Assembly: GCA_964593295.1 (NCBI GenBank)
Contig: CAZQHD010000002.1
Span: 1-43,573 of the forward strand
Source: an uncultured Thermotogae bacterium
Lineage (GTDB): Bacteria; Bipolaricaulota; Bipolaricaulia; UBA7950; UBA9294
Direction of reading: 5' to 3'
DNA: 43,573 nt
Below, piece after piece: positions 9,856-24,591 of the stretch (position 1 is the stretch's first letter; each line of letters starts with the position of its first letter). The notes under the pieces are model-generated. The model was not told the DNA's origin and ran no database searches. It saw nothing but the letters and a program-made list of their open reading frames with translations. Made by a program: the position numbers and the translations under genes.

Positions 9856-10858
9856 ATGTCGAGGTTGATCGATCGATTGCTGGACTCCGCATCACGCCAG
9901 GAGGACGACCCCCGTCCTGTACAGCGCATGCGCTTGCCGAGCGTTGTGGGATGGGGCTTGGTCTTGCTGGTCGCGGCCATCTACTTGGCGACCGGCATCT
10001 ACACGGTGGGCGCGTCCGAGGAGGCGCTTGTCAAACGGTTCGGTCGCTATGTGCGAAGCACCGGGCCGGGGATCCACTATCATCTGCCGGCACCGTTCGA
10101 ACAGGTCGTTACGGTCGACATTCGGCAGGTCCGGAACGTGGAGATCGGGTTTCGTACGATCTCTCCGGCACCGAACCCGCGGTATCAGTCGATCATCTCC
10201 GAAGCACAAATGCTGACTGGAGACGGGAATATCACGCACGTGGAGATGGCGATCCAGTATCGGGTGAAGGACGCGGCGATGCTTGCCTTCAACCTGATCT
10301 CACCGCACACGATCGTCAAGCAAGCGGCCGAAGCGATGCTTCGCGAGGAGGTCGCCACGAGAACGTTGGACGAGACCCTCACGGAACTGCGCGATGTCAT
10401 CGGGATCAACACGCTGATCGCGTTGCAGGAACTTCTGGATCTGTACGGAGCAGGGATCTCGATCGACAACGTGCAGCTGCAGGCGGTGAAGCCGCCCAGT
10501 GAGGTTGTGTCTGCGTTCGATGACGTCAACAGCGCAATACAGGACAAGGAGAAGCTGATCAACCAGGCGCAGCGGTATTCATTGGACATCATCCCGCGCG
10601 CGGGGGCAGGCACGGGAGATCTCCAACCAGGCCGATGCGTACAAGCAGACGCGGATCAAGGGCGCCGAGGGGGAGGTGGCGAGGTTCCGAGAGGTTCTCG
10701 CCCGTTACTCGGTGGGCGAGGAGGTCACACGAACCCGTCTGTACATCGAGGCCCTGGAGGACATCCTTCCCGGGATGGAGAAGATCCTCATCAGTGAGGA
10801 CACGGGAGGGATTCTCAAACTGCTCAGTCTCGATGGTGCAGGAGGTGAGATCGAATGA
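9856..10858 (+). pseudogene. hflK: FtsH protease modulator HflK, reading frame broken near 10595-10606 (a real frameshift or an assembly error)
   Basis: N-terminal TM helix plus SPFH/band-7 core (VGASEEALVKRFGRYVRSTGPGIHYHLPAPFEQV) in the frame of 9856. After ...AQRYSLDIIPRA, the conserved HflK C-terminus (RGQAREISNQADAYKQTRIKGAEGEVARFREVLARY...RLYIEALEDIL) continues in the frame of 10676. Its stop overlaps the hflC ATG (ATGA at 10855-10858). Confidence 0.8.
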
Positions 10859-11715
10859 GGCCTCTGATGGTATTCCTCGGTGTGATCGTTCTCCTGTTGA
10901 TCGGATACAGCCTGCTGACGTTCACCGTGGACGAAACGCAGAAGGCGGCGGTATTGAGGTTCGGGGAGATCGTCCGGCTTGTGGAGACCCCGGGGCTGTA
11001 CTTCAAGCTCCCCTTCATCCAGACCGTCACGCATCTGGACCGAAGGATCCTCAACTATGATATCCAACCGCTCGACGTCTATACCTCGGACCAGAAACGT
11101 TTGACCATCGACAACTATGCCATTTGGCGTGTCGGAGATCCTCGGCAGTTCATCGAGGCAACGGGGGGACGCACTCTCAGCGCACAGACCCGCATCGATG
11201 AGATCGTGTTCTCTGACCTTCGGAACGTGCTTGCGGAGCAGACCCTTGACGAGATCGTGTCCGAGAAGAGGGGAGATTATCTTGATCTCGTGACCGCGAT
11301 GAGTCGGGAGAAGCTCAAGGAGTTCGGCATTGACCTCATCGATGTACGCATCATACGGGCAGACCTTCCGTCCGAGATCGAGCAGGCGGTGTTTGCGAGG
11401 ATGCGCTCGGAACGAGAGCGGATTGCTGCACAGCTTCGGGCAGAAGGGGAGGAACAGTCCAGGCAGATCACGTCGAGCGCGGACCGAGACGCGGAGATCC
11501 TCCTGGCGGACGCGCGCAGGGACGCAGAGCGGGTTCGTGGAGAGGGAGATGCACAGGCGTTGGAGATTTACGCCGTAGCCTACAATGAGGATCCTCAGTT
11601 CTACCGATACTGGCGAACACTGGAGTCGTATCGGGTGGCGTTGGCCGAGAACACCCGCATCGTGCTCTCCACAGAGTCTGACTACCTCCGATTCCTGGAG
11701 CGGATGGATGATTGA
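10855..11715 (+). CDS. hflC: FtsH protease modulator HflC
   Basis: N-terminal TM helix, an SPFH domain (AAVLRFGEIVRLVETPGLYFKLPFIQTV), a coiled-coil C-terminal region, and a position immediately after hflK. Confidence 0.9.
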   Translation: MRPLMVFLGVIVLLLIGYSLLTFTVDETQKAAVLRFGEIVRLVETPGLYFKLPFIQTVTHLDRRILNYDIQPLDVYTSDQKRLTIDNYAIWRVGDPRQFIEATGGRTLSAQTRIDEIVFSDLRNVLAEQTLDEIVSEKRGDYLDLVTAMSREKLKEFGIDLIDVRIIRADLPSEIEQAVFARMRSERERIAAQLRAEGEEQSRQITSSADRDAEILLADARRDAERVRGEGDAQALEIYAVAYNEDPQFYRYWRTLESYRVALAENTRIVLSTESDYLRFLERMDD

Positions 11716-13062: not shown

Positions 13063-14280
13063 TCAGGTGTGGAGAGATGCGCTTCGAAGCGTGGAGAAGG
13101 CATCCAAGACCTGGCTGAGCTGATCCTCGGTGTGCGTTGCCATCACGCTGGTGCGCAGCAACGACTGCCCTTGAGGCACGGCCGGGGGAATCGCCACGTT
13201 GACGTACACCCCGGCTTCGAAGAGCACGCGCCACGCCTTGAGCGCCTCCAGCGCATCGCCGAGGAACACCGGGATGATCGGCGTGCTGCTCGTCCCGACG
13301 TCGAACCCCAGGGAGCGAAGCCCTTCGCGGAGACGGTCGGCCCGCGCGTTCACCTGTTGGACACGCTCCGGTTCCCGTTCCAGGATCTTCAGCGCGGCGA
13401 GCGCGGCGGCGACGTTGGGTGCCGGAAGGCTGGCGCTGAAGATCAGCGAACGTGCCATGTGGCGGATCCAGTGAATGGGTGCCGCCGACCCGGCGATGTA
13501 CCCGCCGATCGACGCCAGAGACTTGCTGAAGGTTCCCATGAGAAGATCCACACGGTCCGCAACGTTGAGGAGGTGAGCTGTCCCGCGTCCACAGCCGACG
13601 GCGCCGACGCCGTGCGCATCATCGACCATCCATCGCGTGTTTGTCTCCTCGCAAAGGCTGGCGATCTCGGGCAGGAAGGCGATCTCTCCGCTCATGCTGA
13701 ATACCCCGTCGGTGACGAGCAGCTTGCCGGCATCCTCGGGGCAGGCTTCGAGAACCCTGCGAAGGTCCTCCATGTCGCTGTGCTGATACCGAAGCATGCG
13801 TCCCAGCGATAGCCTGCACCCATCCACGATGGATGCGTGGTTGTCTTTGTCGCTGATCACGACGTCTCTTCGTCCGATCAGACCCGACAGCACACCCAGA
13901 TTCGTCTGATAGCCCGTACTGAAGACGATGGCGTCGTCCTTGCCCAAGAAGTCGGCCAGACGCGATTCCAGCTCGCCGTGCAGGCGCAGGGTGCCGTTGA
14001 GGAAGCGTGACCCCGTACAGCTCGTACCGTATTGACGAACGGCGTCCTCTGACGCACGGCGAACCTCGGGATGCATGGTGAGTCCGAGGTAGTTGTTCGA
14101 ACCCAGCATGATCAGGCGACGTCCGTCGATGACGATCTCCGTACCCTCTGCGTGGTCCAGCGGAATGAAGAACGGGTAAAGGTTCATCTCCTTTGCGGCA
14201 CGCGGGCTGGCCGGATACCCCATTCGGATTGCGAACGATGGGTCGGATAGAAAGCTCTCACAGCGGGCAAACAGATCCAC
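13063..14280 (-). CDS. PLP-dependent alpha-oxoamine synthase, serine palmitoyltransferase (Spt)-like
   Basis: LGSNNYLGL, GSRFLNGT, DDAHGVG, the PLP-lysine block GTFSKSLASIGGYIAG, and RSLIFSASLPAPNVAA. By my recollection, GSRxLNGT and GTFSKS match Spt-type enzymes better than BioF or Kbl. The GTG start overlaps the SDR stop by 1 nt. Confidence 0.8.
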   Translation of the reverse strand: MDLFARCESFLSDPSFAIRMGYPASPRAAKEMNLYPFFIPLDHAEGTEIVIDGRRLIMLGSNNYLGLTMHPEVRRASEDAVRQYGTSCTGSRFLNGTLRLHGELESRLADFLGKDDAIVFSTGYQTNLGVLSGLIGRRDVVISDKDNHASIVDGCRLSLGRMLRYQHSDMEDLRRVLEACPEDAGKLLVTDGVFSMSGEIAFLPEIASLCEETNTRWMVDDAHGVGAVGCGRGTAHLLNVADRVDLLMGTFSKSLASIGGYIAGSAAPIHWIRHMARSLIFSASLPAPNVAAALAALKILEREPERVQQVNARADRLREGLRSLGFDVGTSSTPIIPVFLGDALEALKAWRVLFEAGVYVNVAIPPAVPQGQSLLRTSVMATHTEDQLSQVLDAFSTLRSASLHT

Positions 14281-15185
14281 TAGCTTCTCCTTCCGTTACA
14301 CGGAGGCACGCCGTAGTACTTCGAAAGAGCCCACTCAAACCATTGGGACGGCAGAACGCGTTTCAGCTCGACGGCTCCTCGTTGAGATCTCGGGCCGACA
14401 GTATAGCGTACACGTGGAGATCGACACGTCAACACGCGCTCCACAAGTCGCGCAACCGACTCTGGATGGGCGCCGCCACGTTCGTCCTTCTCGACCACCG
14501 AGAGCACATGGTCCTCGGTCTCTCGGTAGATGGAACCCGGGCGAGATGCTTGCACGCGCTTCCGACGGTCGGTGAACTGTGTGTGAACGTCGCCGGGCTC
14601 GATCAGCACGACCTGTACACCGCCCGGAGCGGCTTCCATGCGCATCGCTTCGGTGAGCCCCTCCAGCGCGAACTTGGTCGCACTGTAGAGTCCCTGGTAG
14701 GGAAGGCCGATGCGACCGCCGATCGAGGAGATGTTCAGGATCTTCCCCCGTCCTTGGTGGCGGAGCACTGGAAGTACAGCACGACAAACCCTCATGACTC
14801 CTAGGAGGTTCGTCTCAAGGAGGGCACGAGCCTCTTCGTCCGATGTCTCCTCTACCGCGCCGAACAGCCCAACCCCCGCACAGTTGATGACGCCATCCAG
14901 GCTTCCTGCGTCCTGCAACACACGTTCGACCCCCGCGGTCACCGAGGCGGCGTCATCAACGTTCATCGTCACCATTCTCAGGAACTGGGAGGGGGGAAGC
15001 AGCTGTCGAAGCTCGTCCTCAATGGGCTCGGGGTCGTGACGCGTGGTTCCGAACACAGGGTATCCACGCCGTGCCAGTCGCAACGCGCATGCGCGCCCGA
15101 TACCTGAAGACGCCCCCGTGATCAACAGCACGCCGAGCGTGCGCGCTCTGTGGCGGCGGCTCATGAAGGCTCTTTCTCTCTTCAC
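14280..15185 (-). CDS. classical short-chain dehydrogenase/reductase (SDR)
   Basis: TGASSGIGRA cofactor motif, NISS, and catalytic YSATKFALEGL. The GTG start overlaps the lipocalin stop (GTGA). An alternative ATG is at 15164. Confidence 0.85.
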   Translation of the reverse strand: MKRERAFMSRRHRARTLGVLLITGASSGIGRACALRLARRGYPVFGTTRHDPEPIEDELRQLLPPSQFLRMVTMNVDDAASVTAGVERVLQDAGSLDGVINCAGVGLFGAVEETSDEEARALLETNLLGVMRVCRAVLPVLRHQGRGKILNISSIGGRIGLPYQGLYSATKFALEGLTEAMRMEAAPGGVQVVLIEPGDVHTQFTDRRKRVQASRPGSIYRETEDHVLSVVEKDERGGAHPESVARLVERVLTCRSPRVRYTVGPRSQRGAVELKRVLPSQWFEWALSKYYGVPPCNGRRS

Positions 15186-15730
15186 GGACGCTCGTCCAAT
15201 CCGTCGATCTGCGGAATCCTCTGGAACGCGTCTCGGAGATATCCCTGAGTCTCTAGGCGTTGGAAAATCCCCTCAAGGACCGCCTCCGGTAGGCAGGGTG
15301 TCCGACTGAGAATCCATCCATACCGACGAGAAGGGTGGCCAACGACAGCATACGTGTAGTCCTCTGCCAGATCGATGATCCAGTAAGGGGCGCCGAACCA
15401 CCACAAGCCCAGGAAACGCACGAAACTCACACGCAATTTGGCTGGATCCGATGGATCGGGGATCCATGCGTTTCCCCGGGCGGTGTCTTGGGAGCCCTGC
15501 GCGGTGTAGCACCGGTTGACGACCTCAACTCTTCCGTTGGGCAGGAGGGTGTACTCAGCTGTAGTTCCGGCTGCGCATCTTCGCTCAAACGGCGTAGGGA
15601 TGCTGGCAATCGAGTACCAACGTCCCATGTAGCGAGTCAGATCGACCGACGATACTGTCTGTAGGGCGGGACGCGCCAGCCCTCCCCATCCCAGGCACAA
15701 CATAATCGCGACAAGTGCGCCCGTTCGCAT
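15182..15730 (-). CDS. bacterial lipocalin (Blc-like)
   Basis: Signal sequence, then the lipocalin signature LTRYMGRWYSIASIPTPFE. Also YWIIDLAEDYTYAVVG and GWILSRTP, as in Blc family proteins. Confidence 0.85.
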   Translation of the reverse strand: MRTGALVAIMLCLGWGGLARPALQTVSSVDLTRYMGRWYSIASIPTPFERRCAAGTTAEYTLLPNGRVEVVNRCYTAQGSQDTARGNAWIPDPSDPAKLRVSFVRFLGLWWFGAPYWIIDLAEDYTYAVVGHPSRRYGWILSRTPCLPEAVLEGIFQRLETQGYLRDAFQRIPQIDGLDERP

Positions 15731-15862: not shown

Positions 15863-16984
15863 ATGTACCATCGATTCATGAAACGTGCACTCCAGGTGTT
15901 CTTCGTGGGGGTCTCAGTTGCCCTTATTGCCGGCTGTCTGTTCGACATGAACCTGCCCGTGGTCGATTCGGAGGGTGGGGTGTTCGTCTTTCTGTCGGAG
16001 GATGGCTCGTATGCCTCGTTCTCTGAGGGGGGATCTCTCTATCGGTGGCTTGATGGGCACTGGACCCCCTTCCCCCAGGTGTCGGTTGAGAACGCGGGGG
16101 CAGTCATGGCTGTCTCTCCGAACGGCGAGGAGCTTCTCTACGTGGAGGTCCTTTCAGAGAGCCCCTTCGATCCGCCCTTGACTCGAATCTATCATCTCTC
16201 CACAGTCTGTCCGGCCTCTGCTGCGCCCCGTCTTGTGACAGAGACTCGTCAACTGCTGGCTCGTGCCGCGTGGTCGCCTTGGGGCGTCCTTGTTCTGACG
16301 CTGGATGCGGAGGGCGAGGGACGTATCGGACGACTGGATCTCGCGTCTGGCGAGATCGAGACGCTTCGCACAGGGGTTCTATCGTTTATCGTCCGAGACG
16401 ACATCCTCATCTTCTCGGTGGAAGTGTTCGGTGACCTGGGGATCGGGAGGATCGATCGTTGGGATCCCGAGAGGGGGCCCTTCGAGCACCTCGCGTCCGT
16501 CGCCGTCGGACGAGACACCGCGATGATCTTTCGCTCTCTTCCGCACTCCGTTCTCTGGGACGCGACCGAGGATGGATTGGGCATGGCTCTGGCGATCTAC
16601 AGTGCGTCCGTTCTATCTCCTGACCTGCAGGACAGCTCGCCTTCTCTGTATCTTCTCGACCTTGAAGCAGTCTCAGCTCAACAGGTGGCTGTGACGGGCC
16701 TCATGCCCGCGTTCTCCCCGGACGGAACAAGGCTTGCGCTCCTTGAGGGGGCGGACGAAGAGGCCCTCCATGTGGTGGTCGTATCGTGGAAGGATGGAGA
16801 CAGGCAAACGCTGGAGGGAACGGAGGGAGTCCAGACCCTTCACTGGGTAGGGCCGGATCGTCTCTGGGTTGTGCGGGAAGACGAGAACCAGCAGGTGTTC
16901 CTGCTTGAGGTTGAGGTGTCTCCCGGGGGAGAACACAGTGTGATGATCATCCGCGGCCCAGGGCCTGCGCCGCACACTCCATGA
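15863..16984 (+). CDS. lipoprotein, TolB-like beta-propeller repeats, unknown function
   Basis: Lipobox VALIAGC. Repeated SP(N/D)G..L motifs (AVSPNGEELLY, AFSPDGTRLALL). An alternative start is at 15878. Confidence 0.55.
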   Translation: MYHRFMKRALQVFFVGVSVALIAGCLFDMNLPVVDSEGGVFVFLSEDGSYASFSEGGSLYRWLDGHWTPFPQVSVENAGAVMAVSPNGEELLYVEVLSESPFDPPLTRIYHLSTVCPASAAPRLVTETRQLLARAAWSPWGVLVLTLDAEGEGRIGRLDLASGEIETLRTGVLSFIVRDDILIFSVEVFGDLGIGRIDRWDPERGPFEHLASVAVGRDTAMIFRSLPHSVLWDATEDGLGMALAIYSASVLSPDLQDSSPSLYLLDLEAVSAQQVAVTGLMPAFSPDGTRLALLEGADEEALHVVVVSWKDGDRQTLEGTEGVQTLHWVGPDRLWVVREDENQQVFLLEVEVSPGGEHSVMIIRGPGPAPHTP

Positions 16985-17999
16985 TGCGCGTGTAGCTCAA
17001 CTGCGTTCCTTGCTGGTACCAGGGAACCAGCTGTTCGTGAAGCCGACGGTTGAACGGATGGGCCAACGCCGCCTCCAGGGAACCGTGAAGCCGTCGGCCC
17101 ATGTGGAGTGTCTCTAGCTGCGCGGCGTTCCATTTCTGCTCGTAGTGCCCTTCGATCGGTTGGACCACGATCCTCTTGCCCAGGAAGAAAGCCTCACAGA
17201 TCGTCTGAAACCCTGCGGTTCCTACGTATGCGTAGCAGGACGTGAGATCCTGGAGAAACCGCCCGGCCTCCGACACGAAGTGAACGTTGGCCGGAGTCCC
17301 GGGAGAAGGTTGATTGTACCCGTAGATCAGGATCTCGCGTTCTTGGTGGCGCTCGGCATACGACAGGATTGGGTCTAGCCGCCCGGGAAACGAGTGATAG
17401 ACTAACACATGACCATCATCAGATGGAGACAGTTGCTCTATCTCCGGGCGCAGGATGGGCGGAAGACATGAGCTGTCGTGTGGGTAGAAGTGGCAGCTGA
17501 GGATGACGTCCACACCGCTGGAGCACAGTTTGATGGCCAGGTTCGTGTTGAATCTGTCCAGCCGTTCGCCCGGGAGTGGACTGAGATGGTGTCTACGCGA
17601 CATCGCCCAGTTTCCCACACCCACCTTGAACACGGAGGGGGCGACCAGGGGAGATCCGGTGATGGGGTCGAAGTCGCTTATGATAAAGTCCGGGGCGAAC
17701 TGCGTGATCAGTTTGTGCCCCTGGCGAAGGCTCTTCAGGAGTCCGGGCATCCCACCAACAAACGACGAAGCGGTCTTCCGTTTGGAGATTCCGCCCATGC
17801 CGTCGTCCGCCATCTCGAATCCGGACATCCGCTCATGACGAGAGGTTCCCACGGCGTCGAGGAAGAACGAGGGCGGATCATGGCGCCCGGAGATGATGAC
17901 CAGCATCTCGTGTCCGTCGGCGTCGAACCATGGCTTGAGCGCAGCGAACCGTGCCAGATGCCCGCGACCCGTGCTCTGTACGCCATAAACGATCCTCAC
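16947..17999 (-). CDS. GT-B glycosyltransferase, MJ1255/VC2487 (TIGR00661)-like
   Basis: N-terminus RIVYGVQSTGRGHLARFAAL... is typical of this MurG/UGT-related family. C-terminal GTAGFQTICEAFFLGKRIVVQP is a nucleotide-sugar binding half. The GTG at 17999 is preceded by GGGAGGGGA. Confidence 0.65.
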   Translation of the reverse strand: MRIVYGVQSTGRGHLARFAALKPWFDADGHEMLVIISGRHDPPSFFLDAVGTSRHERMSGFEMADDGMGGISKRKTASSFVGGMPGLLKSLRQGHKLITQFAPDFIISDFDPITGSPLVAPSVFKVGVGNWAMSRRHHLSPLPGERLDRFNTNLAIKLCSSGVDVILSCHFYPHDSSCLPPILRPEIEQLSPSDDGHVLVYHSFPGRLDPILSYAERHQEREILIYGYNQPSPGTPANVHFVSEAGRFLQDLTSCYAYVGTAGFQTICEAFFLGKRIVVQPIEGHYEQKWNAAQLETLHMGRRLHGSLEAALAHPFNRRLHEQLVPWYQQGTQLSYTRIMECAAQALGRG

Positions 18000-18183
18000 C
18001 CGTCCCCTCCCGTGACACACTCGTTCCCATGAGTGTCCGAAGAATCGTAGAGCCCGTCAATCCTAAAGCTGCAGGTTCCCGGCGAGAAGGCTTCTATGGA
18101 TGCCGCTGTCTCGCACTGCTTGCAGTAGCGCCCCCGGGAGGGAGAATAGACAGTGGAAACGACCAAGGAGGGGCTGTTCAATC

Positions 18184-19068
18184 ATGCATCACTTACGATC
18201 GCTAGGGTTTGGCGTGTTCGGTCTGGGGGTTCTTCTTGTCGGGCTGATCGCGGTGGGGGAGACGAAGTCCAACCAGGAGCTTCTGGCCGAGGCGGATCTT
18301 GCCTACGTTGGACGCCTTTGTCCCGAGGGCATGGAGGAGGCGGTCGTGCGCTATGAAGCCGTGCTCGATGGCATCGATTCTCTCTCCGTGTCGGAGCAGA
18401 CCAGTCTCCTGAACCGCCTGTCTCAACTGTACTATGAGTCCACCACGTTTACGATCGATGACGTGCCGGGGGACCGACAGCGATTCGAGAGGGGAAGAGA
18501 GTACGGGCTGCAGAGCCTGAGGCTCAACCCGGCGTTTGTCGAGGCCGAAGACCGTGACTTCAAGGAGGCGGTGTCCTACGTCACGGACCTCGCCGCGCTC
18601 CACTGGACGGCCAGCAACTGGGGAAAGCTGTTGGGAATGACAAGCTGGGTCGAGATTCTCTTCCAACCAGGGCTGGTGGCTCAGGCGGGGAGGATCCTCG
18701 TGTTGTTCGAGCGCGTTGTGGCGCTGGACCCAGGCTTCTGGGGAGGCAGTGCGTGCAGCTCCCTTGGGTCACAACTGGTGATGTCTCCTGCGTTTCTGGG
18801 CGGAGACCGGCCGCGTGGACTCGCCCTGATGGAGCAAGCGATCGACCTGGATCCGTCGTACCTGTCGAACCGAGTCATCTTTGCCGAATACGCGGGGTAT
18901 GCCTACGACACGTTCGGGAATCGAGGCAAGCCTGCCGACGTGCAGCTCATCCGGCAAGAACTCAGCGTCGTCTTGGAGGCTGAAATCGGAGACTGGCCGT
19001 TCTGGAATGCCCGCGCCAAGGAACGAGCGGCCTACCTCCTGGAACAACTCTCACCCGATTCGTCCTGA
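18184..19068 (+). CDS. secreted all-helical (TPR-like) protein, possibly TatT family
   Basis: The ATG at 18184 follows AAGGAGG. N-terminal hydrophobic anchor. The C-terminal block FWGGSACSSLGSQLVMSPAFLGGDRPRGLALMEQAIDLDPSYL..VIFAEY resembles the TatT (TRAP-associated TPR) family as I remember it. Confidence 0.45.
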   Translation: MHHLRSLGFGVFGLGVLLVGLIAVGETKSNQELLAEADLAYVGRLCPEGMEEAVVRYEAVLDGIDSLSVSEQTSLLNRLSQLYYESTTFTIDDVPGDRQRFERGREYGLQSLRLNPAFVEAEDRDFKEAVSYVTDLAALHWTASNWGKLLGMTSWVEILFQPGLVAQAGRILVLFERVVALDPGFWGGSACSSLGSQLVMSPAFLGGDRPRGLALMEQAIDLDPSYLSNRVIFAEYAGYAYDTFGNRGKPADVQLIRQELSVVLEAEIGDWPFWNARAKERAAYLLEQLSPDSS

Positions 19069-19121: not shown

Positions 19122-19886
19122 CTACTCCCCCCATCCTGTCTTGCCGATCTGAGTGAGTCGATTGAGGCAGGGTACGAGAGATTGCATCGCGATCCGGGCA
19201 TGCCGTGCCAGTCGAACCAGCGAGGCCCACTGGCGTGGATGCAGAGATGTGTCGATGAGAAGACGGACTCGGGATGCCTCGGCGCTCAGAACCCGACGGG
19301 TACTCTCCGGCATCGTGTCTTCCAGACGGTCTGAGACCGCGCGCACCGTGAGGAATGGAACGCTGTGGGACGCGGCGATGGTGGCCAGCCAGAAGCTCTC
19401 CATGTCGACCACGTCGGCGCAGTGCTTTGCGGCAAGAGACTGCTTCTGCTTGGGCGTGGCGACCAACCTGTCGGTGGTCAGTCCTCGGAGCCTTCGGACG
19501 TTCCCGGCGCACCCCGTGATGGTTTGCTCAGCCCATGCAATCAGCTGCTCGTCGAGCGCGTGATCCTTGATCGTTGGTCTCCCCGACGTTTCTTCTTCAC
19601 ATCTTACGCTCGTGTACAACGCGATCTCTCCGATGCCCACACCGTCCACCAGCGCGCCGCAGAATCCGAAGGAGACGATCCGGTCGATCCTCTCTTGAGC
19701 CATTGCGCAGGCCACGGCGTTCTGGACTCGATCACGGCCGATTCCTGTTTGGATCAGCAACACCGGATCATCACGATTCGCCGCCCGATACGATGGGAAC
19801 GGCAGGTGCGGATCCCTCCTGTTGAGGCGAAGGGCCTTCTTGACCGGGAGAACCTCCTCACGAACTGCACCGACCAGCAGGATCAT
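19122..19886 (-). CDS. PNP/UDP-phosphorylase-fold nucleosidase, HpnG/MTAN-like
   Basis: MILLVGAV..., TGIGRDR, SFGFCGAL and VVDMESFWLA are the conserved blocks of the MTA/SAH nucleosidase and hopanoid-associated phosphorylase fold. The ATG at 19886 overlaps the sulfotransferase stop (ATGA). Confidence 0.7.
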   Translation of the reverse strand: MILLVGAVREEVLPVKKALRLNRRDPHLPFPSYRAANRDDPVLLIQTGIGRDRVQNAVACAMAQERIDRIVSFGFCGALVDGVGIGEIALYTSVRCEEETSGRPTIKDHALDEQLIAWAEQTITGCAGNVRRLRGLTTDRLVATPKQKQSLAAKHCADVVDMESFWLATIAASHSVPFLTVRAVSDRLEDTMPESTRRVLSAEASRVRLLIDTSLHPRQWASLVRLARHARIAMQSLVPCLNRLTQIGKTGWGE

Positions 19887-21028
19887 GACGAGACCTCGGA
19901 CGATGGATCGCGAAGCGTGTACCCCCATGGGGTGAACGCAAATGCCCACTGACGGTTGACCTCGGCGATGACCTCGCGGCTCAGAGGATACTGGTTTCTC
20001 CGATACCCGGAAACCGATTCGATGTACTGTTCGAAGTAGGGGCGTGCTTTCTCGAACCCGGGAAGCTGCAGTTCCCGGTAGATCCTTGCCAGTTGGGCCA
20101 ACGGCGCTGATTCCAGGTCTTCGTAGCGAATCTCAACATACCGGTTTGCGGGGATGGAGGACCGGTCCTCCAGAAGGCGTTGCATGAGCTTTCGATAGAA
20201 GAGCAGAACATTGAACGGGATCTCCTCCGGGGCGATCCGTTGGAGCTGTGACTTCGGGAGCACCGTCCTGTGCATGTGTACGGTCGAGAGAAACACCTCG
20301 TAGGGATCACGATGGATGTGGATGAATCTGGCTTCGGGGAACAGCTTCAGCAGGGTCTTGATCCGCCCGCTGTGTGCACAGTTCTTGATGACCAGTCTTC
20401 GGCCTTGGCTTCTCACGGTGGCTTTACGGAGGATCTCCTGGTAGACGGCGCACCAACGCGAGAGTGTCGCTTCCGGGAGGCGGTGGAACAGTACGTACCG
20501 ATCGAAAAACCATCGAGCCTGTCGGGGAAACGTAAACGCGTGCAGGAAGGAGTAAGGAGACATGGAGGCCAGAGCAAACTCGTCCTCTTGAGGCGCGTCA
20601 AGGGCGAGAGGGATGTTGTCAATCAGGCGTGTCGGATAGTGTTTGGCCGCGTGCCTTGCCAGCAGGGGCATGAGTCTCCGTTCCCCCGAAAGACAGAAAC
20701 CCGGGGCCATGGCCTGGAAGGTAGAGACGGATCCGACCGCGGGATCCCTGCACAGGAGGTTGTGCAGATGGGTGGTCCCGCTTCGCCAGTGTCCGAGGAT
20801 GAAGAGCGGTTGGGGATGAACCGCGGTATGTCGAACCAAGCGACCGTATCGGACGCGTTCCCATACGCGAAGCGGAGCGGTGAGCAGCGTGGTCAACGTC
20901 ACGAAGGCTGCCCGTAGAAGGAACGGTCTGTCTACGCTCGGGTGCTCTCGAAGCAGGCGCACCCAGCTGGAGAAGGATCCCAGCGCGATCGGATGCTCTG
21001 TATGTCTTCGGTGTTCGCGTTTCGACAT
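19883..21028 (-). CDS. PAPS-dependent sulfotransferase family protein
   Basis: 5'-phosphosulfate binding loop GHWRSGTTHLHNLL, and a 3'-phosphate binding region ARFIHIHRDPYEVFLS. The ATG overlaps the upstream stop by 1 nt (TGATG). Confidence 0.85.
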   Translation of the reverse strand: MSKREHRRHTEHPIALGSFSSWVRLLREHPSVDRPFLLRAAFVTLTTLLTAPLRVWERVRYGRLVRHTAVHPQPLFILGHWRSGTTHLHNLLCRDPAVGSVSTFQAMAPGFCLSGERRLMPLLARHAAKHYPTRLIDNIPLALDAPQEDEFALASMSPYSFLHAFTFPRQARWFFDRYVLFHRLPEATLSRWCAVYQEILRKATVRSQGRRLVIKNCAHSGRIKTLLKLFPEARFIHIHRDPYEVFLSTVHMHRTVLPKSQLQRIAPEEIPFNVLLFYRKLMQRLLEDRSSIPANRYVEIRYEDLESAPLAQLARIYRELQLPGFEKARPYFEQYIESVSGYRRNQYPLSREVIAEVNRQWAFAFTPWGYTLRDPSSEVSS

Positions 21029-22731
21029 CAGCGCACTCTCCCAGGAGGGTGGGATTCATCGTGTGCGTAGGGCATTGCGCTGGCCTGCGACGCATGGAGA
21101 GGCGCGGCGGCCTCTCGAAGCATCACCAGACCAAAGATGGTCGTGGAGTAGGCGATCCCTCCGTTGGGGTGAAGGAAGACGGCTCCTGCCCAGTTATTGA
21201 ACCCCAGCCCGCGGCCAGCCAGCCGTCGGTAGACTGTCTCGCCGGTGTGGAAATCGATGGCGATCCAATACCAGTGAGTCACCGAACACTCTTCACTTCG
21301 CCAGTACATGTACACCAGACCATTGCCCAACGAGAGCTTGAACACACAGAGGCTCTTCTCGGAGCTCGACCAGACTTCACGGCAGGAGAAGCTCCCGTCG
21401 TCTTCTCTGAGCACGTCCACACGCGTCAGCCCCGGCTCCGGACGTGAACGAGGGAATCGATGGTGTCCCCAGTTGTTCTCCACCAGAATCGAGTACCGCC
21501 CCCGTCCCACCCCCTGAGTATCCGCATGTTCAAAGCACGCAACGCTGACATCGGTTCCACTCTTGCCCTGTTCGAACAGAGGGAAACGGCAGAGGATCTG
21601 TCCGTCGTGGCGACGCAACAAGAGAAGATGGATCCTCGGCTCTGCGTTGTCGGTGATGGCCACCAATCCATCGAGGTCTCCCATCAACGAAACCGAGGTC
21701 CCCGACCCTCGAGCAATGTGTCCTGGTTTCTTGGCGCCGCCGCGATCATACGGAGTTCGCCACTCGATGATCACCTTGCCCTCGTCTCCGACACCGAACC
21801 GGTACATGGCATGATCGGAGACGATGAACGCGCCGTCCTGGCCCACCGCGAACGAGTTCTCGATGGTTTCTCCCTCGAGTTGAAGTGTTCGAACGTCTCC
21901 GGACTCGATCTCCACGGTCCCGACCATCCCCTCTGTGGAGGCAAACCAGTAGTACTGACCGCCCCAATCGGGGAGAACCCATGCAATACTGTCCCTCTTC
22001 GGCCAACGCATCGGTACGACCGAATCCTGGAGGTCGTAGGTCCTCACGACCTCGAAGCTCGAACTGTCGTCAGAGATTCGGATCACCTCGATCGTGTTCT
22101 GTGTCGTGGGGACGACCGCGCGGTCTTCGTGGTCCAAGTAGAAGTACATCCCGGCCCCGATATACTGCCAGGGCATGATCCCCTGCAGCCACCAGTACCA
22201 CGGCCGAGAGGGAAGAGGGTGCGTTGCCAGCAACTCCAGCGAGTGGTCATCGATGAGATCGAGTCGGAACCGCCTGCCGTTGCTGAACACGGCGACGATG
22301 CGCCCGAGGCGATCGTGGGTGAGGGTGCCGTATCCGCCGAACCCTTCGGTTCGAGAGACGATCTCCATGTCGATGCCCAGCGGGCCCGCGGCCGTGTAGG
22401 TGTCGCTCATGGACGCATCACAGTGCATGTTGTTGACCCCTCCGGAGGCCATGAACGGGTGCTTGGGGACCGGCATGTGGGGGATCGGCACGGGCTTGGT
22501 CTCCGGGATGGACCGGAGGACCTCTGAACAGGAAGACGTGTCCGCGTTGTCTCTGCCGAACAGAGCGCTCCACGCCACGCGGAATGCCTCGGAAGGATAG
22601 AGGATGTTGGGCGAGATCGGACGGACAGTGTCTGAGGGCTGGGATGTACAACGCGAGAGGGCGAAGACGAGGAGAACGCAGCCCACGATGATGGCGGGAA
22701 CGAACCAACCTCTTCGCTGAACAGAGTTCAT
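21028..22731 (-). CDS. membrane-anchored extracytoplasmic protein, probably beta-rich/propeller-like, family not recognised
   Basis: MNSVQRRGWFVPAIIVGCVLLVFALS anchor, then about 540 residues rich in W/Y/G beta-strand patterns (GGVNNMHCDASMSDTY, WYWWLQGIMPWQYIGAGMYFYLD, YYWFASTEGMVGTVE). The track's N-terminal extension to 23037 is Arg/Ser-rich and runs into the divergent gene, so I place the start at 22731. Confidence 0.55.
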   Translation of the reverse strand: MNSVQRRGWFVPAIIVGCVLLVFALSRCTSQPSDTVRPISPNILYPSEAFRVAWSALFGRDNADTSSCSEVLRSIPETKPVPIPHMPVPKHPFMASGGVNNMHCDASMSDTYTAAGPLGIDMEIVSRTEGFGGYGTLTHDRLGRIVAVFSNGRRFRLDLIDDHSLELLATHPLPSRPWYWWLQGIMPWQYIGAGMYFYLDHEDRAVVPTTQNTIEVIRISDDSSSFEVVRTYDLQDSVVPMRWPKRDSIAWVLPDWGGQYYWFASTEGMVGTVEIESGDVRTLQLEGETIENSFAVGQDGAFIVSDHAMYRFGVGDEGKVIIEWRTPYDRGGAKKPGHIARGSGTSVSLMGDLDGLVAITDNAEPRIHLLLLRRHDGQILCRFPLFEQGKSGTDVSVACFEHADTQGVGRGRYSILVENNWGHHRFPRSRPEPGLTRVDVLREDDGSFSCREVWSSSEKSLCVFKLSLGNGLVYMYWRSEECSVTHWYWIAIDFHTGETVYRRLAGRGLGFNNWAGAVFLHPNGGIAYSTTIFGLVMLREAAAPLHASQASAMPYAHDESHPPGRVR

Positions 22732-22810
22732 GAACAGGAGGATACCCTGAGGCTGACTCTCGATCACGTGACCGTGAGATCGTGCTCTTGTCATCCGAGG
22801 GTTGAGTCGG

Positions 22811-22851
22811 CGGAGCGCTGAACGGCAAGATGAACCCCGCCGAGCGCTCCG
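22811..22851. promoter_or_regulatory. perfect 9-bp inverted repeat in the divergent control region
   Basis: CGGAGCGCT (22811-22819) and AGCGCTCCG (22843-22851) are exact reverse complements separated by 23 nt. The repeat sits midway between the divergent starts at 22731 and 22921. Confidence 0.25.
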
Positions 22852-22920
22852 AAGAAGGTTGCTGGAAGAGGACCTGCCATGGGATGATACCCGTACACGA
22901 TTCAGAGAGAGAGGGAGAGG

Positions 22921-24591
22921 ATGGCCACACAGGACGGCTTTGTGCTTTGGTTCACCGGTCTGTCTGCGTCGGGGAAGACAACCTTGGCCCAGGCGGTGGA
23001 GAAGGAGATGATGGCACGCGGGATGCCGCGGGTTCAACGCTTGGACGGTGATGTTGTACGCGAGGACCTGACAAGAGACCTGGGCTTCAGCAAGGAAGAC
23101 CGGGACGAGAACATCCGGCGGATCGCGTTTGTCGCGCAGCTACTCTCCTCCCACGGTGTGGCCACGCTCTGCTCCTTCATCTCACCGTATCGAGAAGCGC
23201 GAGCGCACGCTCGCACTCGATGCCGCCGCTTCATCGAGGTGTTTGTGGACTGCCCGATGGACGTTCTTCTCGAAAGGGACCCCAAAGGGCTCTACAAAAA
23301 GGCGATGGCCGGGCAAATCCGAGGGTTCACCGGAGTTGACGATCCCTATGAGGCTCCGGAATCTCCGGAGATTGTTGTCCACACGGCACGCCAAACAGTC
23401 GAGCAGTCCACGCAGGTGATCCTCTCATACCTGGAGACGCACGGTTTGCTCGGAGCCCAACAGTCTGGCGTAATGAGCTCTGTACGGCTCGTGGATCGGA
23501 CGGTGTCAGATCGCCGGAGACTCCGACAGGCGGATGGCCCTGTTCTGGTACTGTCTGACGTGCAGGTGAGCGAGCTAGACGCTATCGGATGTGGGTTGTA
23601 CAGCCCGCTGACAGGGTTCATGACCTCCGCGGAGTACGAGCGCGTGATCTCTTCGATGAGGCTTCCGGATGGCTCCGTCTGGACCGTCCCGATCACGCTT
23701 CCCGTGCCGAATGAACTGCGCCAGGGTATCCGATGCGGGATGGTCCTCACGCTTTGCGATGAGCAGGGGGAGACACATGGTCTTCTAGAAGTGAAGGACA
23801 TCTTCTCCCGCGATCTGAAGCACGAAGCCCAGTCAGTCTATGGGACAACCGAAACGATCCATCCCGGTGTCGCCCGACTGATGGAGGAGCCGGAGGCGGT
23901 GGTGGGCGGAGACATTCACCTCCTTCAAAGATCAGGCCCATCGCAGCATCCCCTCAACATGGATCCTGAAGTCACGAGAGAGCTGTTCTCCCAGAGGGGA
24001 TGGAAGACGATCGTGGCGTTCCAGACACGAAACCCCATTCATCGAGCGCATGAGTATCTTCTCAAGTGTGCGCTGGAGATCTTCGACGGGTTGTTCGTCA
24101 ACCCTCTGGTGGGAGAGACTCAGAAGGAGGATCTCCCGGTTGATCTACGGATGCGCTGCTACGAAGAGGTCTTGCAGGGCTACTTCCCGAAGGAGAGGAC
24201 GATCCTAGGAACCTTTCCCGTTCCCATGAGGTACGCCGGACCGCGAGAGGCTGTGCATCATGCCTTGTGTCGAAGAAACTACGGGTGCACGCACATGATT
24301 GTGGGGCGTGACCATGCGGGGGTGGGTGGCTACTACGGGACCTACGACGCACAACGAATCTTCGATCGGTTCACTCCGGAGGAACTGGGGATCACCCCGC
24401 TATGCTTTGAGCACGCGTTCTACTGCAGGGTGTGCGGCCAAGTGGCCAGCAAGAAGACATGTCCACATGACGCAGAACACCATCTCTTCCTCTCCGGGAC
24501 CAAGGTGCGGGAGATGCTCAGTGGCGGGACTCCGCTTCCCGATGAGTTCACACGGGCGGAGGTGGCCGAGATTCTGCGCGGGGCGCTCTAG
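22921..24591 (+). CDS. bifunctional adenylylsulfate (APS) kinase / sulfate adenylyltransferase (PAPS synthase)
   Basis: The N-terminal APS kinase has FVLWFTGLSASGKTTLA and SFISPYRE. The C-terminal ATP sulfurylase has FQTRNPIHRAHEYL and VGRDHAGVG. GAGGGAGAGG precedes the ATG. Confidence 0.9.
   Translation: MATQDGFVLWFTGLSASGKTTLAQAVEKEMMARGMPRVQRLDGDVVREDLTRDLGFSKEDRDENIRRIAFVAQLLSSHGVATLCSFISPYREARAHARTRCRRFIEVFVDCPMDVLLERDPKGLYKKAMAGQIRGFTGVDDPYEAPESPEIVVHTARQTVEQSTQVILSYLETHGLLGAQQSGVMSSVRLVDRTVSDRRRLRQADGPVLVLSDVQVSELDAIGCGLYSPLTGFMTSAEYERVISSMRLPDGSVWTVPITLPVPNELRQGIRCGMVLTLCDEQGETHGLLEVKDIFSRDLKHEAQSVYGTTETIHPGVARLMEEPEAVVGGDIHLLQRSGPSQHPLNMDPEVTRELFSQRGWKTIVAFQTRNPIHRAHEYLLKCALEIFDGLFVNPLVGETQKEDLPVDLRMRCYEEVLQGYFPKERTILGTFPVPMRYAGPREAVHHALCRRNYGCTHMIVGRDHAGVGGYYGTYDAQRIFDRFTPEELGITPLCFEHAFYCRVCGQVASKKTCPHDAEHHLFLSGTKVREMLSGGTPLPDEFTRAEVAEILRGAL

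What the first reader, a model, noticed from the sequence alone, without database searches (positions are those of the whole stretch)
19122..24591. Dedicated PAPS-supply and sulfotransferase locus with two partners that have no described role in sulfation
Seen in sequence: a fused APS kinase/ATP sulfurylase (22921-24591, +) is divergent, across 189 nt, from three translationally coupled minus-strand genes. These are an unrecognised 567-aa membrane-anchored protein, a PAPS-type sulfotransferase (WRSGTTHLHNLL, IHIHRDPYEVFLS) and an HpnG/MTAN-like nucleosidase. The junctions are TGATG at 21026-21030 and ATGA at 19883-19886.

Established: this sulfotransferase fold uses PAPS. Assimilatory sulfate loci normally carry cysH/cysI/cysJ or sulfate permease genes, and none is in the window.

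Inference: this is a self-contained metabolite or envelope sulfation module. Its acceptor and its two accessory activities are unknown.
Basis: partly seen in the sequence, partly recalled or inferred. Interest (0 to 1): 0.75.

Follow-up and report, generated by a model that had tools for sequence, protein, structure and literature searches.

The report
Hopanoid-linked lipid sulfation gene module
A conserved gene set encoding a maker of activated sulfate, a lipid-type sulfotransferase and an exported propeller-shaped protein of no known family sits inside hopanoid side-chain operons in uncultured Bipolaricaulota and Chloroflexota, which predicts sulfated hopanoid membrane lipids that I could not find described.

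Summary

Across 68 related loci from several phyla, the conserved core is the unknown 567-aa protein (UNK) next to a Sulfotransfer_3 gene. This holds in 40 of 47 informative loci. PAPS-synthesis genes lie within 3 kb in about 22 loci.

The nucleosidase is not a sulfation accessory. It is an HpnG-type hopanoid side-chain nucleosidase. In relatives the operon reads UNK-ST-HpnH-HpnG-HpnA, with HpnH and HpnA above their NCBIfam cut-offs. One Acetothermia locus puts UNK-ST beside squalene-hopene cyclase. The window holds a reduced form without HpnH and HpnA.

ST is closest in sequence and fold to the mycobacterial sulfotransferases Stf1 and Stf9. UNK is a signal-anchored or lipoprotein-type exported beta-propeller of about 8 blades, with no Pfam, PDB-sequence or specific fold match.

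Best reading (confidence 0.55): a dedicated PAPS supply feeds sulfation of a C35 hopanoid polyol, and UNK handles the product outside the membrane. The library searches returned no paper on sulfated hopanoids. This is a new variant of lipid sulfation with an uncharacterised obligate partner.

The parts
22921..24591 (+). Fused PAPS synthase: N-terminal APS kinase (aa 6-153), PUA_2 (aa 189-337), C-terminal ATP sulfurylase (aa 345-553).
   Evidence: Pfam E 7e-62, 9e-41 and 7e-94. TIGR00455 229 bits and TIGR00339 380 bits are both above their cut-offs. Orthologues lie divergent from UNK in L002, L005, L006, L017, L018, L022, L074 and L075.
22732..22920 (.). Divergent intergenic region between the PAPS synthase gene and the UNK operon. 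It is 189 nt, or 126 nt if UNK starts at ATG 22794. It holds a short palindromic core TCACGTGA at 22764-22771.
   Evidence: Sequence. No sigma-70 consensus site was found. A short block is partly conserved in relatives. No Rfam match.
21028..22731 (-). UNK: exported, N-terminally anchored beta-propeller protein (about 8 blades) of an uncharacterised family. It is the first gene of the operon and the conserved partner of the sulfotransferase.
   Evidence: No Pfam or NCBIfam hit at E<=10. No PDB sequence match. AF2 model has pLDDT 80 and pTM 0.83, with helix 10-26 followed by a propeller. Foldseek finds only generic propellers. More than 1600 homologues exist, with no Pfam domain recorded for any of the 120 best listed. 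1713 50%-identity clusters match. All orthologues have a basic N-terminus followed by a hydrophobic helix or lipobox-like motif.
19883..21028 (-). ST: PAPS-dependent sulfotransferase of the mycobacterial Stf type (Sulfotransfer_3), with a long N-terminal helical extension. Its start overlaps the UNK stop (TGATG).
   Evidence: Pfam E 9e-38. PDB sequence hits 2z6v (E 2e-12) and 2zq5. Foldseek gives Stf1 and Stf9 with TM 0.62-0.67, well ahead of all others. PAPS motifs are invariant. It lies within 500 nt of UNK in 50 of 68 loci.
19122..19886 (-). HpnG-type nucleosidase (hopanoid side-chain step: adenosylhopane to ribosylhopane). Its start overlaps the ST stop (ATGA).
   Evidence: Best NCBIfam family is TIGR03468 HpnG, at 107.6 bits, below the 187.1 cut-off. 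It aligns full length, including the C-terminal extension, with nucleosidases that sit beside HpnH/HpnA in L004, L009, L030, L035, L061, L073 and L074. E11, the D161-M162-E163 motif and D186 are invariant. It aligns with MTAN (5'-methylthioadenosine/S-adenosylhomocysteine nucleosidase) structures over aa 4-201.
18100..19068 (+). TAtT-like (TPR, TRAP T-component-like) exported protein, convergent with the operon. It is a lineage-specific conserved neighbour. The likely true start is the internal ATG at 18184.
   Evidence: Pfam TAtT E 3e-11. Present within 10 kb of UNK in 19 of 68 loci, all Bipolaricaulota-type. It sits at the same position in L002 and L073-L077.
16947..18020 (-). Glycosyltransferase (Glyco_trans_1_3, MJ1255/VC2487 family). 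It recurs beside the TAtT-like gene in the nearest relatives. Whether it belongs to the module is uncertain.
   Evidence: Pfam E 3e-35. Orthologues lie at the same relative position in L009 (65% id), L073 and L074.

Best explanation
The locus is a dedicated sulfation module for an extended (C35) hopanoid lipid of the cell envelope.

1. The fused enzyme turns sulfate and ATP into PAPS. The domains are shown; the activity is inferred.
2. The HpnG-type nucleosidase removes adenine from adenosylhopane. That substrate is made by HpnH, which is encoded next to ST in relatives but not in this 43.6-kb contig. The product is ribosylhopane, the precursor of bacteriohopanepolyols. The family assignment is shown by similarity and synteny; the substrate is inferred.
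3. ST is an Stf-type sulfotransferase with an N-terminal helical extension that may hold it at the membrane. It transfers sulfate from PAPS to a hydroxyl of the ribosyl or polyol side chain, or of a glycoside of it. This step is inferred.
4. UNK is co-translated from the same operon and anchored on the outer face of the cytoplasmic membrane. It binds or further processes the anionic sulfo-hopanoid once it reaches the outer leaflet. The exported TAtT-like protein is a possible lipid-handling partner. This step is inferred and is the weakest.

The window carries a reduced version (UNK-ST-HpnG) of a five-gene operon, UNK-ST-HpnH-HpnG-HpnA, seen in relatives.
For: **Core pairing**
- UNK and a Sulfotransfer_3 gene lie within 500 nt in 50 of 68 loci, and in 40 of 47 loci with at least 1.5 kb on both sides. 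The loci come from MAGs labelled Bipolaricaulota/Acetothermia, Anaerolineae, Caldilineae, Dehalococcoidia and Myxococcota/Deltaproteobacteria.
- In the Myxococcota-type loci the partner is a different Sulfotransfer_3 subfamily: 26-31% identity to ST, and E 2e-44 to Pfam for L029. The link is therefore to sulfation itself, not to one gene lineage.

**PAPS supply**
- APS kinase lies within 3 kb in 22 loci and ATP sulfurylase in 20. They occur either fused or as separate genes.

**Hopanoid link**
- L030 and L035 read ATPS-APSK-HpnA-UNK-ST-HpnH-HpnG, co-directional.
- L067 and L028 read HpnA-UNK-ST-HpnH, followed by HpnG (on the opposite strand in L028).
- L004, L074 and L076 read UNK-ST-HpnH-HpnG-HpnA.
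- L009 and L073 (83% identical UNK, the nearest relative) read UNK-ST-HpnG-HpnA.
- HpnH scores 341-417 bits against a cut-off of 225. HpnA scores 430 bits against 368.
- L007 (Acetothermia) has UNK-ST convergent with IspH-SHC-HpnG-HpnH-polyprenyl synthase. SHC scores 872 bits against a cut-off of 431.
- hpn genes lie within 10 kb in 14 of 68 loci, and also in L076.

**The sulfotransferase**
- Its closest solved relatives are mycobacterial Stf9 and Stf1.
- JGI names its homologues after Stf3, the sulfotransferase for omega-hydroxy-beta-dihydromenaquinone-9, an isoprenoid lipid.

**UNK is exported**
- A basic N-terminus plus a hydrophobic helix or lipobox-like motif occurs in every lineage. The model shows a helix at 10-26.

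**The nucleosidase**
- The window protein keeps the residues that are invariant across the cluster-linked HpnG proteins.
Against: - The window has no shc, hpnH or hpnA.
- About 50 of 68 UNK-ST loci show no hpn gene within the sequence held. Only 8 of 29 loci with at least 5 kb on both sides do.
- The reciprocal scan from the L007 cyclase returned 80 SHC loci. UNK or ST appeared only in the two that are near-identical to L007.
- The window nucleosidase scores below the HpnG cut-off.
- No sulfated hopanoid turned up in the searchable literature. That fits novelty, but it also means there is no chemical support.
- Whether the Dehalococcoidia and Myxococcota carriers make hopanoids at all was not testable.
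- UNK's role is pure inference. It has no cofactor motif, no family and no specific fold match.
Confidence: 0.55

Rival explanations
1. The UNK-ST-PAPS core sulfates a different envelope molecule, such as another membrane lipid, a glycolipid or a surface glycan. On this view hopanoid genes are neighbours in some lineages only because envelope-lipid genes cluster. The HpnG-type gene in the window would be a remnant or serve another adenosyl-lipid.
For: - Most UNK-ST loci lack hpn genes nearby.
- SHC-centred loci rarely carry UNK-ST.
- Dehalococcoidia loci pair the core with a different extended SDR/epimerase, not with HpnH/HpnG.
- Glycosyltransferases recur nearby.
- Some distant UNK relatives carry lectin-like or thrombospondin-type extracellular domains.
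Against: - In Anaerolineae and Caldilineae, UNK and ST lie between hpnA and hpnH with short gaps. In Bipolaricaulota-type loci they head the same co-directional gene string.
- In the window, the nucleosidase start overlaps the ST stop.
- ST is of the Stf type, and polysaccharide sulfotransferases rank far lower in fold search.
- No polysaccharide export or polymerase genes appear in the annotated flanks.
Confidence: 0.25
2. It is an Stf3-like system that sulfates a hydroxylated isoprenoid quinone, like sulfomenaquinone S881 of Mycobacterium tuberculosis. The nucleosidase would act in the futalosine route to menaquinone.
For: - JGI annotates homologues as omega-hydroxy-beta-dihydromenaquinone-9 sulfotransferase.
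- The nearest structures are mycobacterial Stf proteins.
- The nucleosidase has a secondary hit to futalosine hydrolase, at 59 bits.
Against: - No open reading frame left unassigned in the window is long enough for a P450 hydroxylase. None appears in the annotated flanks of relatives.
- The radical-SAM neighbour is HpnH by an equivalog model, at 341-417 bits against a cut-off of 225. It is not an aminofutalosine synthase.
- The futalosine hydrolase score is below both its own cut-off (124.7) and the HpnG score.
- A squalene-hopene cyclase lies alongside in L007.
Confidence: 0.05
3. The acceptor is a sphingolipid-like or sulfonolipid-like long-chain base made by the nearby Blc-SDR-SPT-like operon (13063-15730).
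For: - A serine-palmitoyltransferase-like gene (475 bits to the CFB-type SPT model) and an SDR lie 4-6 kb away.
- An SPT-like gene is also near UNK-ST in L003.
Against: - SPT-like genes are near UNK in only 2 loci, both close relatives.
- The SPT score is below the cut-off of 640.
- The SPT operon is separated from the module by four other genes, three of them on the opposite strand.
Confidence: 0.05
4. The PAPS synthase serves ordinary assimilatory sulfate reduction, and its position beside the sulfotransferase is incidental.
For: PAPS is also the substrate of CysH-type reductases (established knowledge). The region outside the contig is unknown.
Against: - No cysH, sir or cysJI gene or sulfate permease appears in 43.6 kb, nor in the flanks of relatives.
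- PAPS genes accompany UNK-ST in two independent gene architectures across phyla.
Confidence: 0.03

Closest known systems
hpn hopanoid side-chain genes (HpnH adenosyl-hopene transferase, HpnG nucleosidase, HpnA epimerase-like protein)
   Same: Relatives of this locus carry HpnH and HpnA above the NCBIfam cut-offs, plus HpnG-type nucleosidases, in one co-directional gene string with UNK and ST. The window keeps the HpnG-type gene. The published pathway is diploptene to adenosylhopane (HpnH) to ribosylhopane (HpnG) (PMC12583986).
   Different: The hpn genes listed in that paper include no sulfotransferase, PAPS synthase or beta-propeller, and its authors found no obvious further candidate genes next to hpn clusters (PMC12583986). 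The window itself lacks shc, hpnH and hpnA. The UNK-ST-linked HpnH/HpnG lineage is only about 45% identical to the SHC-linked one.
Mycobacterial Stf sulfotransferases (Stf1 and Stf9 structures; Stf3, which makes sulfomenaquinone S881)
   Same: Same Sulfotransfer_3 fold and PAPS motifs, and the closest sequence and fold matches. From my own knowledge, Stf3 sulfates a terminal hydroxyl of an isoprenoid membrane lipid. That is the same kind of chemistry proposed here.
   Different: Identity is only 19-22%. There is no P450 partner. The partners here are an exported beta-propeller and hopanoid genes. The N-terminal 70-residue helical extension was not compared.
Bacteroides cholesterol sulfotransferase locus (BT_0416 with adjacent PAPS-synthesis genes)
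   Same: From my own knowledge, not tested here: a bacterial sulfotransferase for a polycyclic triterpenoid-type lipid is encoded together with its own PAPS supply.
   Different: The acceptor there is a host sterol 3-OH. Hopanoids made from squalene lack that hydroxyl, so a side-chain hydroxyl would be the target here. No UNK-like partner is known there. Sequence relationship was not tested.
Two-step sulfation with a PAPS-independent aryl sulfotransferase (Cpz8/Cpz4 in caprazamycin biosynthesis; periplasmic ASST beta-propellers)
   Same: From my own knowledge: a cytoplasmic PAPS-dependent sulfotransferase is paired with a beta-propeller enzyme that passes the sulfuryl group on. The pairing of a sulfotransferase with an exported propeller is formally similar.
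   Different: UNK shows no Pfam match of any kind, including to ASST families, even at E<=10. No ASST appears among the top 50 fold matches. UNK has about 8 blades, whereas ASST has 6 (the ASST count is from my own knowledge).
Activating sulfotransferases (CurM ST, olefin synthase ST, retinol dehydratase, LGS1)
   Same: They appear among the fold matches of ST. In these systems sulfation of a lipid or isoprenoid alcohol creates a leaving group for a later step. That would give UNK something to do.
   Different: They are much weaker matches than Stf1/Stf9 (TM 0.35-0.39 normalised to the query). No thioesterase or cyclase partner is present. This is a resemblance only.

Membership tests
PAPS-dependent sulfotransferase, Sulfotransfer_3 / Stf type | Profile match above the curated cut-off | tested here: met
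   PF13469 at 131.1 bits against a cut-off of 27.
PAPS-dependent sulfotransferase, Sulfotransfer_3 / Stf type | 5'-phosphosulfate-binding loop and 3'-phosphate-binding motif | tested here: met
   GHWRSGTT and HRDPY...S align with the same motifs of 2z6v. R82, G84, T85, T86, R240, P242 and S248 are invariant.
PAPS-dependent sulfotransferase, Sulfotransfer_3 / Stf type | Fold of solved family members | tested here: met
   Foldseek: Stf1 2zq5 at E 1e-11 and TM 0.62-0.64; Stf9 2z6v at TM 0.66-0.67. Model pLDDT 79.
Stf3 (omega-hydroxy-beta-dihydromenaquinone-9 sulfotransferase) | Operon partner P450 (cyp128-type hydroxylase) that creates the acceptor hydroxyl | tested here: not met
   No P450 among window ORFs or in the annotated flanks of relatives. 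The name comes only from JGI automatic annotation.
Bifunctional PAPS synthase | Both catalytic domains present and above domain cut-offs | tested here: met
   TIGR00455 at 229.4 bits against 138.7; TIGR00339 at 380 bits against 322.95. GLSASGKTT, QTRNPIHRAHE and GRDHAG are visible in the translation.
Bifunctional PAPS synthase | Equivalog model NF004040 (sulfurylase-kinase order) | tested here: not met
   501.6 bits against a cut-off of 669. The domain order here is kinase-PUA-sulfurylase.
HpnG (hopanoid-associated nucleosidase/phosphorylase) | TIGR03468 score above cut-off | tested here: not met
   107.6 bits against 187.1, although it is the best-scoring family. The cluster-linked homologues L035, L009 and L007 also fall below it, at 141, 115 and 73.5 bits.
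HpnG (hopanoid-associated nucleosidase/phosphorylase) | Conserved nucleosidase motifs and the family-specific C-terminal extension | tested here: met
   E11, D161-M162-E163 and D186 are invariant. Full-length alignment with nucleosidases adjacent to HpnH/HpnA. Aligned to MTAN structures.
HpnG (hopanoid-associated nucleosidase/phosphorylase) | Genomic association with hpnH / shc | tested here: inconclusive
   Met in relatives. Not met within this 43.6-kb contig. The rest of the genome is unseen.
hpn hopanoid biosynthesis cluster | Squalene-hopene cyclase in the same genome | not testable with these tools
   Only the contig is available. SHC is adjacent to UNK-ST in L007, L078 and L080 only.
Aryl-sulfate sulfotransferase (ASST) beta-propellers | Sequence or fold similarity to ASST; 6-bladed propeller | tested here: not met
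   No Pfam hit at E<=10 for eight family members. No ASST in the 50 best fold matches. About 8 blades, counted from the strand list.
Assimilatory sulfate reduction locus | cysH / sir / cysJI or sulfate permease beside the activation genes | tested here: not met
   None in the window or in the annotated flanks of relatives.

The most novel reading that the evidence does not exclude
The sulfo-hopanoid is not the end product. It is a membrane-bound activated intermediate. The cytoplasmic ST loads sulfate from PAPS onto the hopanoid side chain, and the lipid flips to the outer leaflet. The exported propeller UNK, the founding member of a new enzyme family, then uses the sulfate ester outside the cell, where no PAPS or ATP exists. 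It could pass the sulfuryl group to a surface acceptor, making the hopanoid a lipid-linked sulfate carrier. Or it could displace sulfate to attach or cyclise the hopanoid side chain.
Probability: 0.12. Interest if true: 0.9.

Novelty: new variant of a known kind. Interest (0 to 1): 0.72.

Why it matters
- **New lipid class.** Hopanoids are major bacterial membrane lipids and the source of geohopane biomarkers. Their side-chain chemistry is only partly assigned to genes: the functions of HpnA, HpnB and HpnL are unknown, as is the enzyme that turns ribosylhopane into bacteriohopanetetrol (PMC12583986). A PAPS-dependent sulfation branch would add an anionic hopanoid class that I expect positive-ion or acetylation-based hopanoid analyses would tend to miss (my own reasoning).
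- **Envelope biology.** It would give LPS-free, poorly understood envelopes such as those of Bipolaricaulota (PMC6092417) a source of surface charge.
- **Handle on a large unknown family.** The UNK family is large: more than 1600 homologues and 1713 50%-identity clusters. It is highly conserved and has no annotation. Its near-obligate pairing with a sulfotransferase gives a concrete way to assign it a function.
- **Directly testable.** Heterologous expression plus negative-ion lipidomics would test the prediction.

Tried and rejected
**Searches on UNK that found nothing specific**
1. Pfam and NCBIfam on UNK, then Pfam at E<=10 on eight family members, and Pfam on 34 distant relatives: no family covers the core.
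2. PDB profile search with the UNK alignment: nothing.
3. Foldseek of the UNK model against PDB: only generic WD40-type propellers. Tetrathionate hydrolase, with TM 0.40-0.53, is the only sulfur-related hit and is too weak to use.
4. An ASST-type second sulfotransferase: rejected as a family assignment.

**Rival readings rejected**

5. PAP-degrading role for the nucleosidase: rejected on established MTAN-family chemistry (a hydrophobic 5' pocket, and a glutamate that binds the free 2' and 3' hydroxyls) and on its HpnG-type alignment.
6. Sulfamoyl-nucleoside antibiotic cluster (nucleocidin or ascamycin type): considered from memory because it combines a sulfotransferase, a nucleoside phosphorylase and PAPS genes. 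No other such genes are present, and the neighbourhood is hopanoid-type.

**Window-level scans that found nothing**

7. SHC motif scan of the window and 75 loci: only L007 matched.
8. Rfam, tRNA and promoter scans: no matches, apart from terminator-like hairpins at chance frequency.

**Other dead ends**

9. Literature searches for sulfated hopanoids or sulfotransferases in hpn clusters: no relevant paper.
10. Exact look-up of the window proteins for an organism name: no names, and the encoding-contig look-up for the sulfotransferase found no record.
11. Reciprocal SHC-centred metagenome scan: did not raise the number of SHC/UNK-ST adjacencies beyond the L007 population.

Full report
**1. What is in the sequence**

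- **22921-24591 (+), fused PAPS synthase.** Its domains are APS kinase (E 7e-62), PUA_2 (E 9e-41) and ATP sulfurylase (E 7e-94). Both catalytic domains exceed the NCBIfam domain cut-offs.
- **21028-22731 (-), UNK.** This 567-aa protein matches nothing in Pfam or NCBIfam.
- **19883-21028 (-), ST.** A Sulfotransfer_3 protein (E 9e-38).
- **19122-19886 (-), NUC.** A PNP_UDP_1 nucleosidase whose best NCBIfam family is HpnG, at 107.6 bits, below the 187.1 cut-off.
- **Junctions.** The minus-strand junctions are TGATG (21030-21026) and ATGA (19886-19883).
- **Divergent gap.** It is 189 nt. The UNK start is not certain: an in-frame ATG at 22794 would give 588 aa. The nearest relative is called at 591 aa, and the 567-aa form is not the database gene call.
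- **Assimilatory genes.** None of the window ORFs that were scanned is a PAPS/APS reductase, sulfite reductase or sulfate permease.
- **Other scans.** No tRNA or Rfam family is present, and no sigma-70 consensus promoter was found.
- **Source.** The window is a complete 43,573-base NCBI contig. Its nearest relatives are MAGs of Candidatus Bipolaricaulota/Acetothermia.

**2. Which parts are conserved together**

UNK belongs to a large unannotated family. There are more than 1600 homologues. The best 120 are 57-83% identical, and none has a Pfam domain on record. A full HMMER pass finds 1713 representative clusters.

A scan of one genome per GTDB species returned 70 loci. They come from MAGs labelled Bipolaricaulota/Acetothermia (some mislabelled Thermotogae), Anaerolineae, Caldilineae, Dehalococcoidia, Myxococcota and Deltaproteobacteria. 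I searched them with the window's proteins.
- 68 loci carry a close UNK.
- A sulfotransferase lies within 500 nt in 50 of them, and in 40 of the 47 with at least 1.5 kb on each side.
- The only locus with long flanks and no ST is L020. There the PAPS gene is also truncated to kinase plus PUA.
- In Myxococcota-type loci the neighbour is a different Sulfotransfer_3 subfamily, 26-31% identical to ST (Pfam E 2e-44 in L029). UNK is therefore tied to sulfation rather than to one ST lineage.
- APS kinase lies within 3 kb in 22 loci and ATP sulfurylase in 20. They are a fused divergent gene in Bipolaricaulota-type loci and separate co-directional genes in Chloroflexota.

**3. What the nucleosidase indicates**

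The nucleosidase occurs in a minority of loci (11 of 68 within 10 kb). It is accompanied by HpnH in most of them and by HpnA in the two where HpnH is missing.
- Between ST and the nucleosidase in L004, L030, L035, L061, L067 and L070 lies a radical-SAM gene. It is HpnH by the equivalog model, at 404-417 bits against a cut-off of 225.
- L009 and L004 have HpnA right after the nucleosidase, at 430 bits against a cut-off of 368.
- L030 and L035 read ATPS-APSK-HpnA-UNK-ST-HpnH-HpnG on one strand with short gaps. L067 and L028 read HpnA-UNK-ST-HpnH, then HpnG, which is on the opposite strand in L028.
- In Bipolaricaulota-type contigs the full form is PAPS synthase, then divergently UNK-ST-HpnH-HpnG-HpnA, then a convergent TAtT-like gene and a Glyco_trans_1_3 glycosyltransferase (L074, L076).
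- The closest relative of the window (L073, UNK 83% identical) has UNK-ST-HpnG-HpnA, then TAtT, the glycosyltransferase and a lipocalin.
- The window is the same arrangement minus HpnA. Many other loci keep only UNK-ST and TAtT. This looks like a reduction series of one operon.
- In L007 (Acetothermia UBA3571), UNK-ST is convergent with IspH, squalene-hopene cyclase (872 bits against a cut-off of 431), HpnG, HpnH and a polyprenyl synthase.
- The window nucleosidase aligns over its full length with these cluster-linked proteins, including the C-terminal extension. It keeps the residues that are invariant among them.

According to the literature, HpnH makes adenosylhopane and HpnG removes adenine to give ribosylhopane. 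The functions of HpnA, HpnB and HpnL are not established, nor is the enzyme that converts ribosylhopane to bacteriohopanetetrol (PMC12583986).

**4. The two proteins at the core**

- **ST.** It carries both PAPS-binding motifs, invariant in 30-34 homologues. Its nearest solved relatives by sequence and fold are mycobacterial Stf9 and Stf1 (E 2e-12; TM 0.62-0.67). These are far ahead of tyrosylprotein, heparan sulfate and cytosolic sulfotransferases. JGI's automatic names for its homologues refer to Stf3, the sulfotransferase for an isoprenoid quinone. The model shows a long N-terminal helix (residues 34-66) before the catalytic core. This may be a membrane-association element; that is inference.
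- **UNK.** The model is confident (pLDDT 80, pTM 0.83). It has an N-terminal helix (10-26) and a propeller of about eight blades. Every orthologue has a basic N-terminus followed by a hydrophobic helix or a lipobox-like motif, so the propeller is outside the cytoplasmic membrane. Fold search gives only generic propellers. Profile searches against PDB and Pfam give nothing.

**5. Most likely mechanism**

- **Shown.** There is a dedicated PAPS supply, an Stf-type PAPS-dependent sulfotransferase, an HpnG-type nucleosidase, and an exported partner protein. These are coupled by overlapping start and stop codons. The link to hpnH and hpnA is operonic in relatives from Bipolaricaulota-type and Chloroflexota MAGs.
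- **Inferred.** The acceptor is the ribosyl or polyol side chain of a C35 hopanoid, or a glycoside of it. The anionic product reaches the outer leaflet, where UNK, perhaps with the TAtT-like protein, binds or transforms it.

I put this at 0.55. The main weaknesses are these:
- Most UNK-ST loci show no hpn gene in the DNA held.
- A reciprocal scan from the L007 cyclase found UNK-ST only in the same population.
- The window lacks shc and hpnH.
- There are no chemical data.

**6. Rivals**

- **Another envelope lipid or glycan (0.25).** It fits the many hpn-free loci and the Dehalococcoidia architecture, ST-APSK-ATPS-UNK-SDR. It does not explain why UNK and ST sit between hpnA and hpnH.
- **Menaquinone sulfation (0.05).** It lacks a hydroxylase and conflicts with the HpnH and SHC assignments.
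- **A sphingolipid-like acceptor from the nearby SPT-like operon (0.05).** It is supported only in close relatives.
- **Assimilatory use of PAPS (0.03).** It has no supporting gene.

**7. Comparison with known systems and novelty**

The module works like known lipid sulfation systems: the mycobacterial Stf enzymes, and the Bacteroides cholesterol sulfotransferase with its own PAPS genes (the latter from my own knowledge).

It differs in three ways:
- its association with hopanoid side-chain genes;
- its near-obligate exported propeller partner of no known family;
- its distribution in uncultured phyla.

Six full-text searches and passages read in seven papers found no report of a sulfated hopanoid or of a sulfotransferase in an hpn cluster.

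I classify it as a new variant of a known kind. The most novel reading not excluded is that the sulfate ester is an activated intermediate used by UNK outside the cell (probability about 0.12).

Noticed in passing
window 13063-15730 (-): An operon with overlapping stops encodes a Blc lipocalin, a short-chain dehydrogenase and a serine-palmitoyltransferase/BioF-like enzyme. The last scores 475 bits to the CFB-type SPT model, below the 640 cut-off. It may make a sphingolipid-type or sulfonolipid-type long-chain base in a Bipolaricaulota MAG. An SPT-like gene also lies about 8 kb from UNK-ST in L003.
   Followed up: partly
L020 (CP070725.1, a Bipolaricaulota chromosome record of 1.73 Mb) 9259-11512: This is the only well-flanked locus where UNK is intact but no sulfotransferase lies within 10 kb. 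The divergent PAPS gene is cut down to APS kinase plus PUA_2 (318 aa). It looks like a decaying copy of the module.
   Followed up: partly
L007 6838-8675 versus L030 10695-12498, L004 5617-7418: There are two lineages of HpnH/HpnG. One sits next to squalene-hopene cyclase and the other next to UNK-ST. The HpnH proteins are about 45% identical and the nucleosidases about 30%. Whether one genome carries both was not determined.
   Followed up: partly
L025, L029, L039, L041, L047 (about 300 nt downstream of UNK): In MAGs labelled Myxococcota or Deltaproteobacteria (L041 is labelled only 'uncultured bacterium'), UNK is followed by a different Sulfotransfer_3 subfamily, only 26-31% identical to the window's ST.
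   Followed up: partly
L040, L043, L044, L045, L048, L052, L062 (just downstream of UNK); L056 (same family, about 3 kb upstream on the opposite strand): Dehalococcoidia loci replace HpnA with a 310-aa NAD-dependent epimerase/3-beta-HSD-like protein directly after UNK (in L056 it lies upstream on the other strand). An extended-SDR partner therefore recurs even where no HpnH or HpnG is seen.
   Followed up: partly
L028 7932-8903: An aldo-keto reductase gene sits directly upstream of HpnA-UNK-ST-HpnH. It is an untested candidate for the still unassigned reduction of ribosylhopane to bacteriohopanetetrol.
   Followed up: no
L076 8442-9293 and 15077-15940; window 18100-19068: TAtT-like (TPR) exported proteins flank the UNK-ST-HpnH-HpnG-HpnA operon on both sides in L076. 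One copy is a constant neighbour in Bipolaricaulota-type loci, present in 19 of 68 loci.
   Followed up: partly
L043 4784-6235 and 10001-11551: Two UNK paralogues (56% and 53% identical to the query) lie in one locus, flanking the APS kinase and ATP sulfurylase genes.
   Followed up: no
window 22757-22773: The block CTCTCGATCACGTGACC, with palindromic core TCACGTGA at 22764-22771, lies in the divergent region. It aligns with a GGGTGATCCAG block upstream of UNK in L075, L017, L018 and L022. It could be an operator, or it could be coding if UNK starts at ATG 22794.
   Followed up: no
window 9856-11715 (+): Two adjacent SPFH/Band 7 (flotillin-like) genes lie a few kb from the lipid genes.
   Followed up: no
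window 38847-41183 (-): A 778-aa protein fuses a NosD-like right-handed beta-helix region to an OpuAC glycine-betaine-type substrate-binding domain. I did not look for this combination elsewhere.
   Followed up: no
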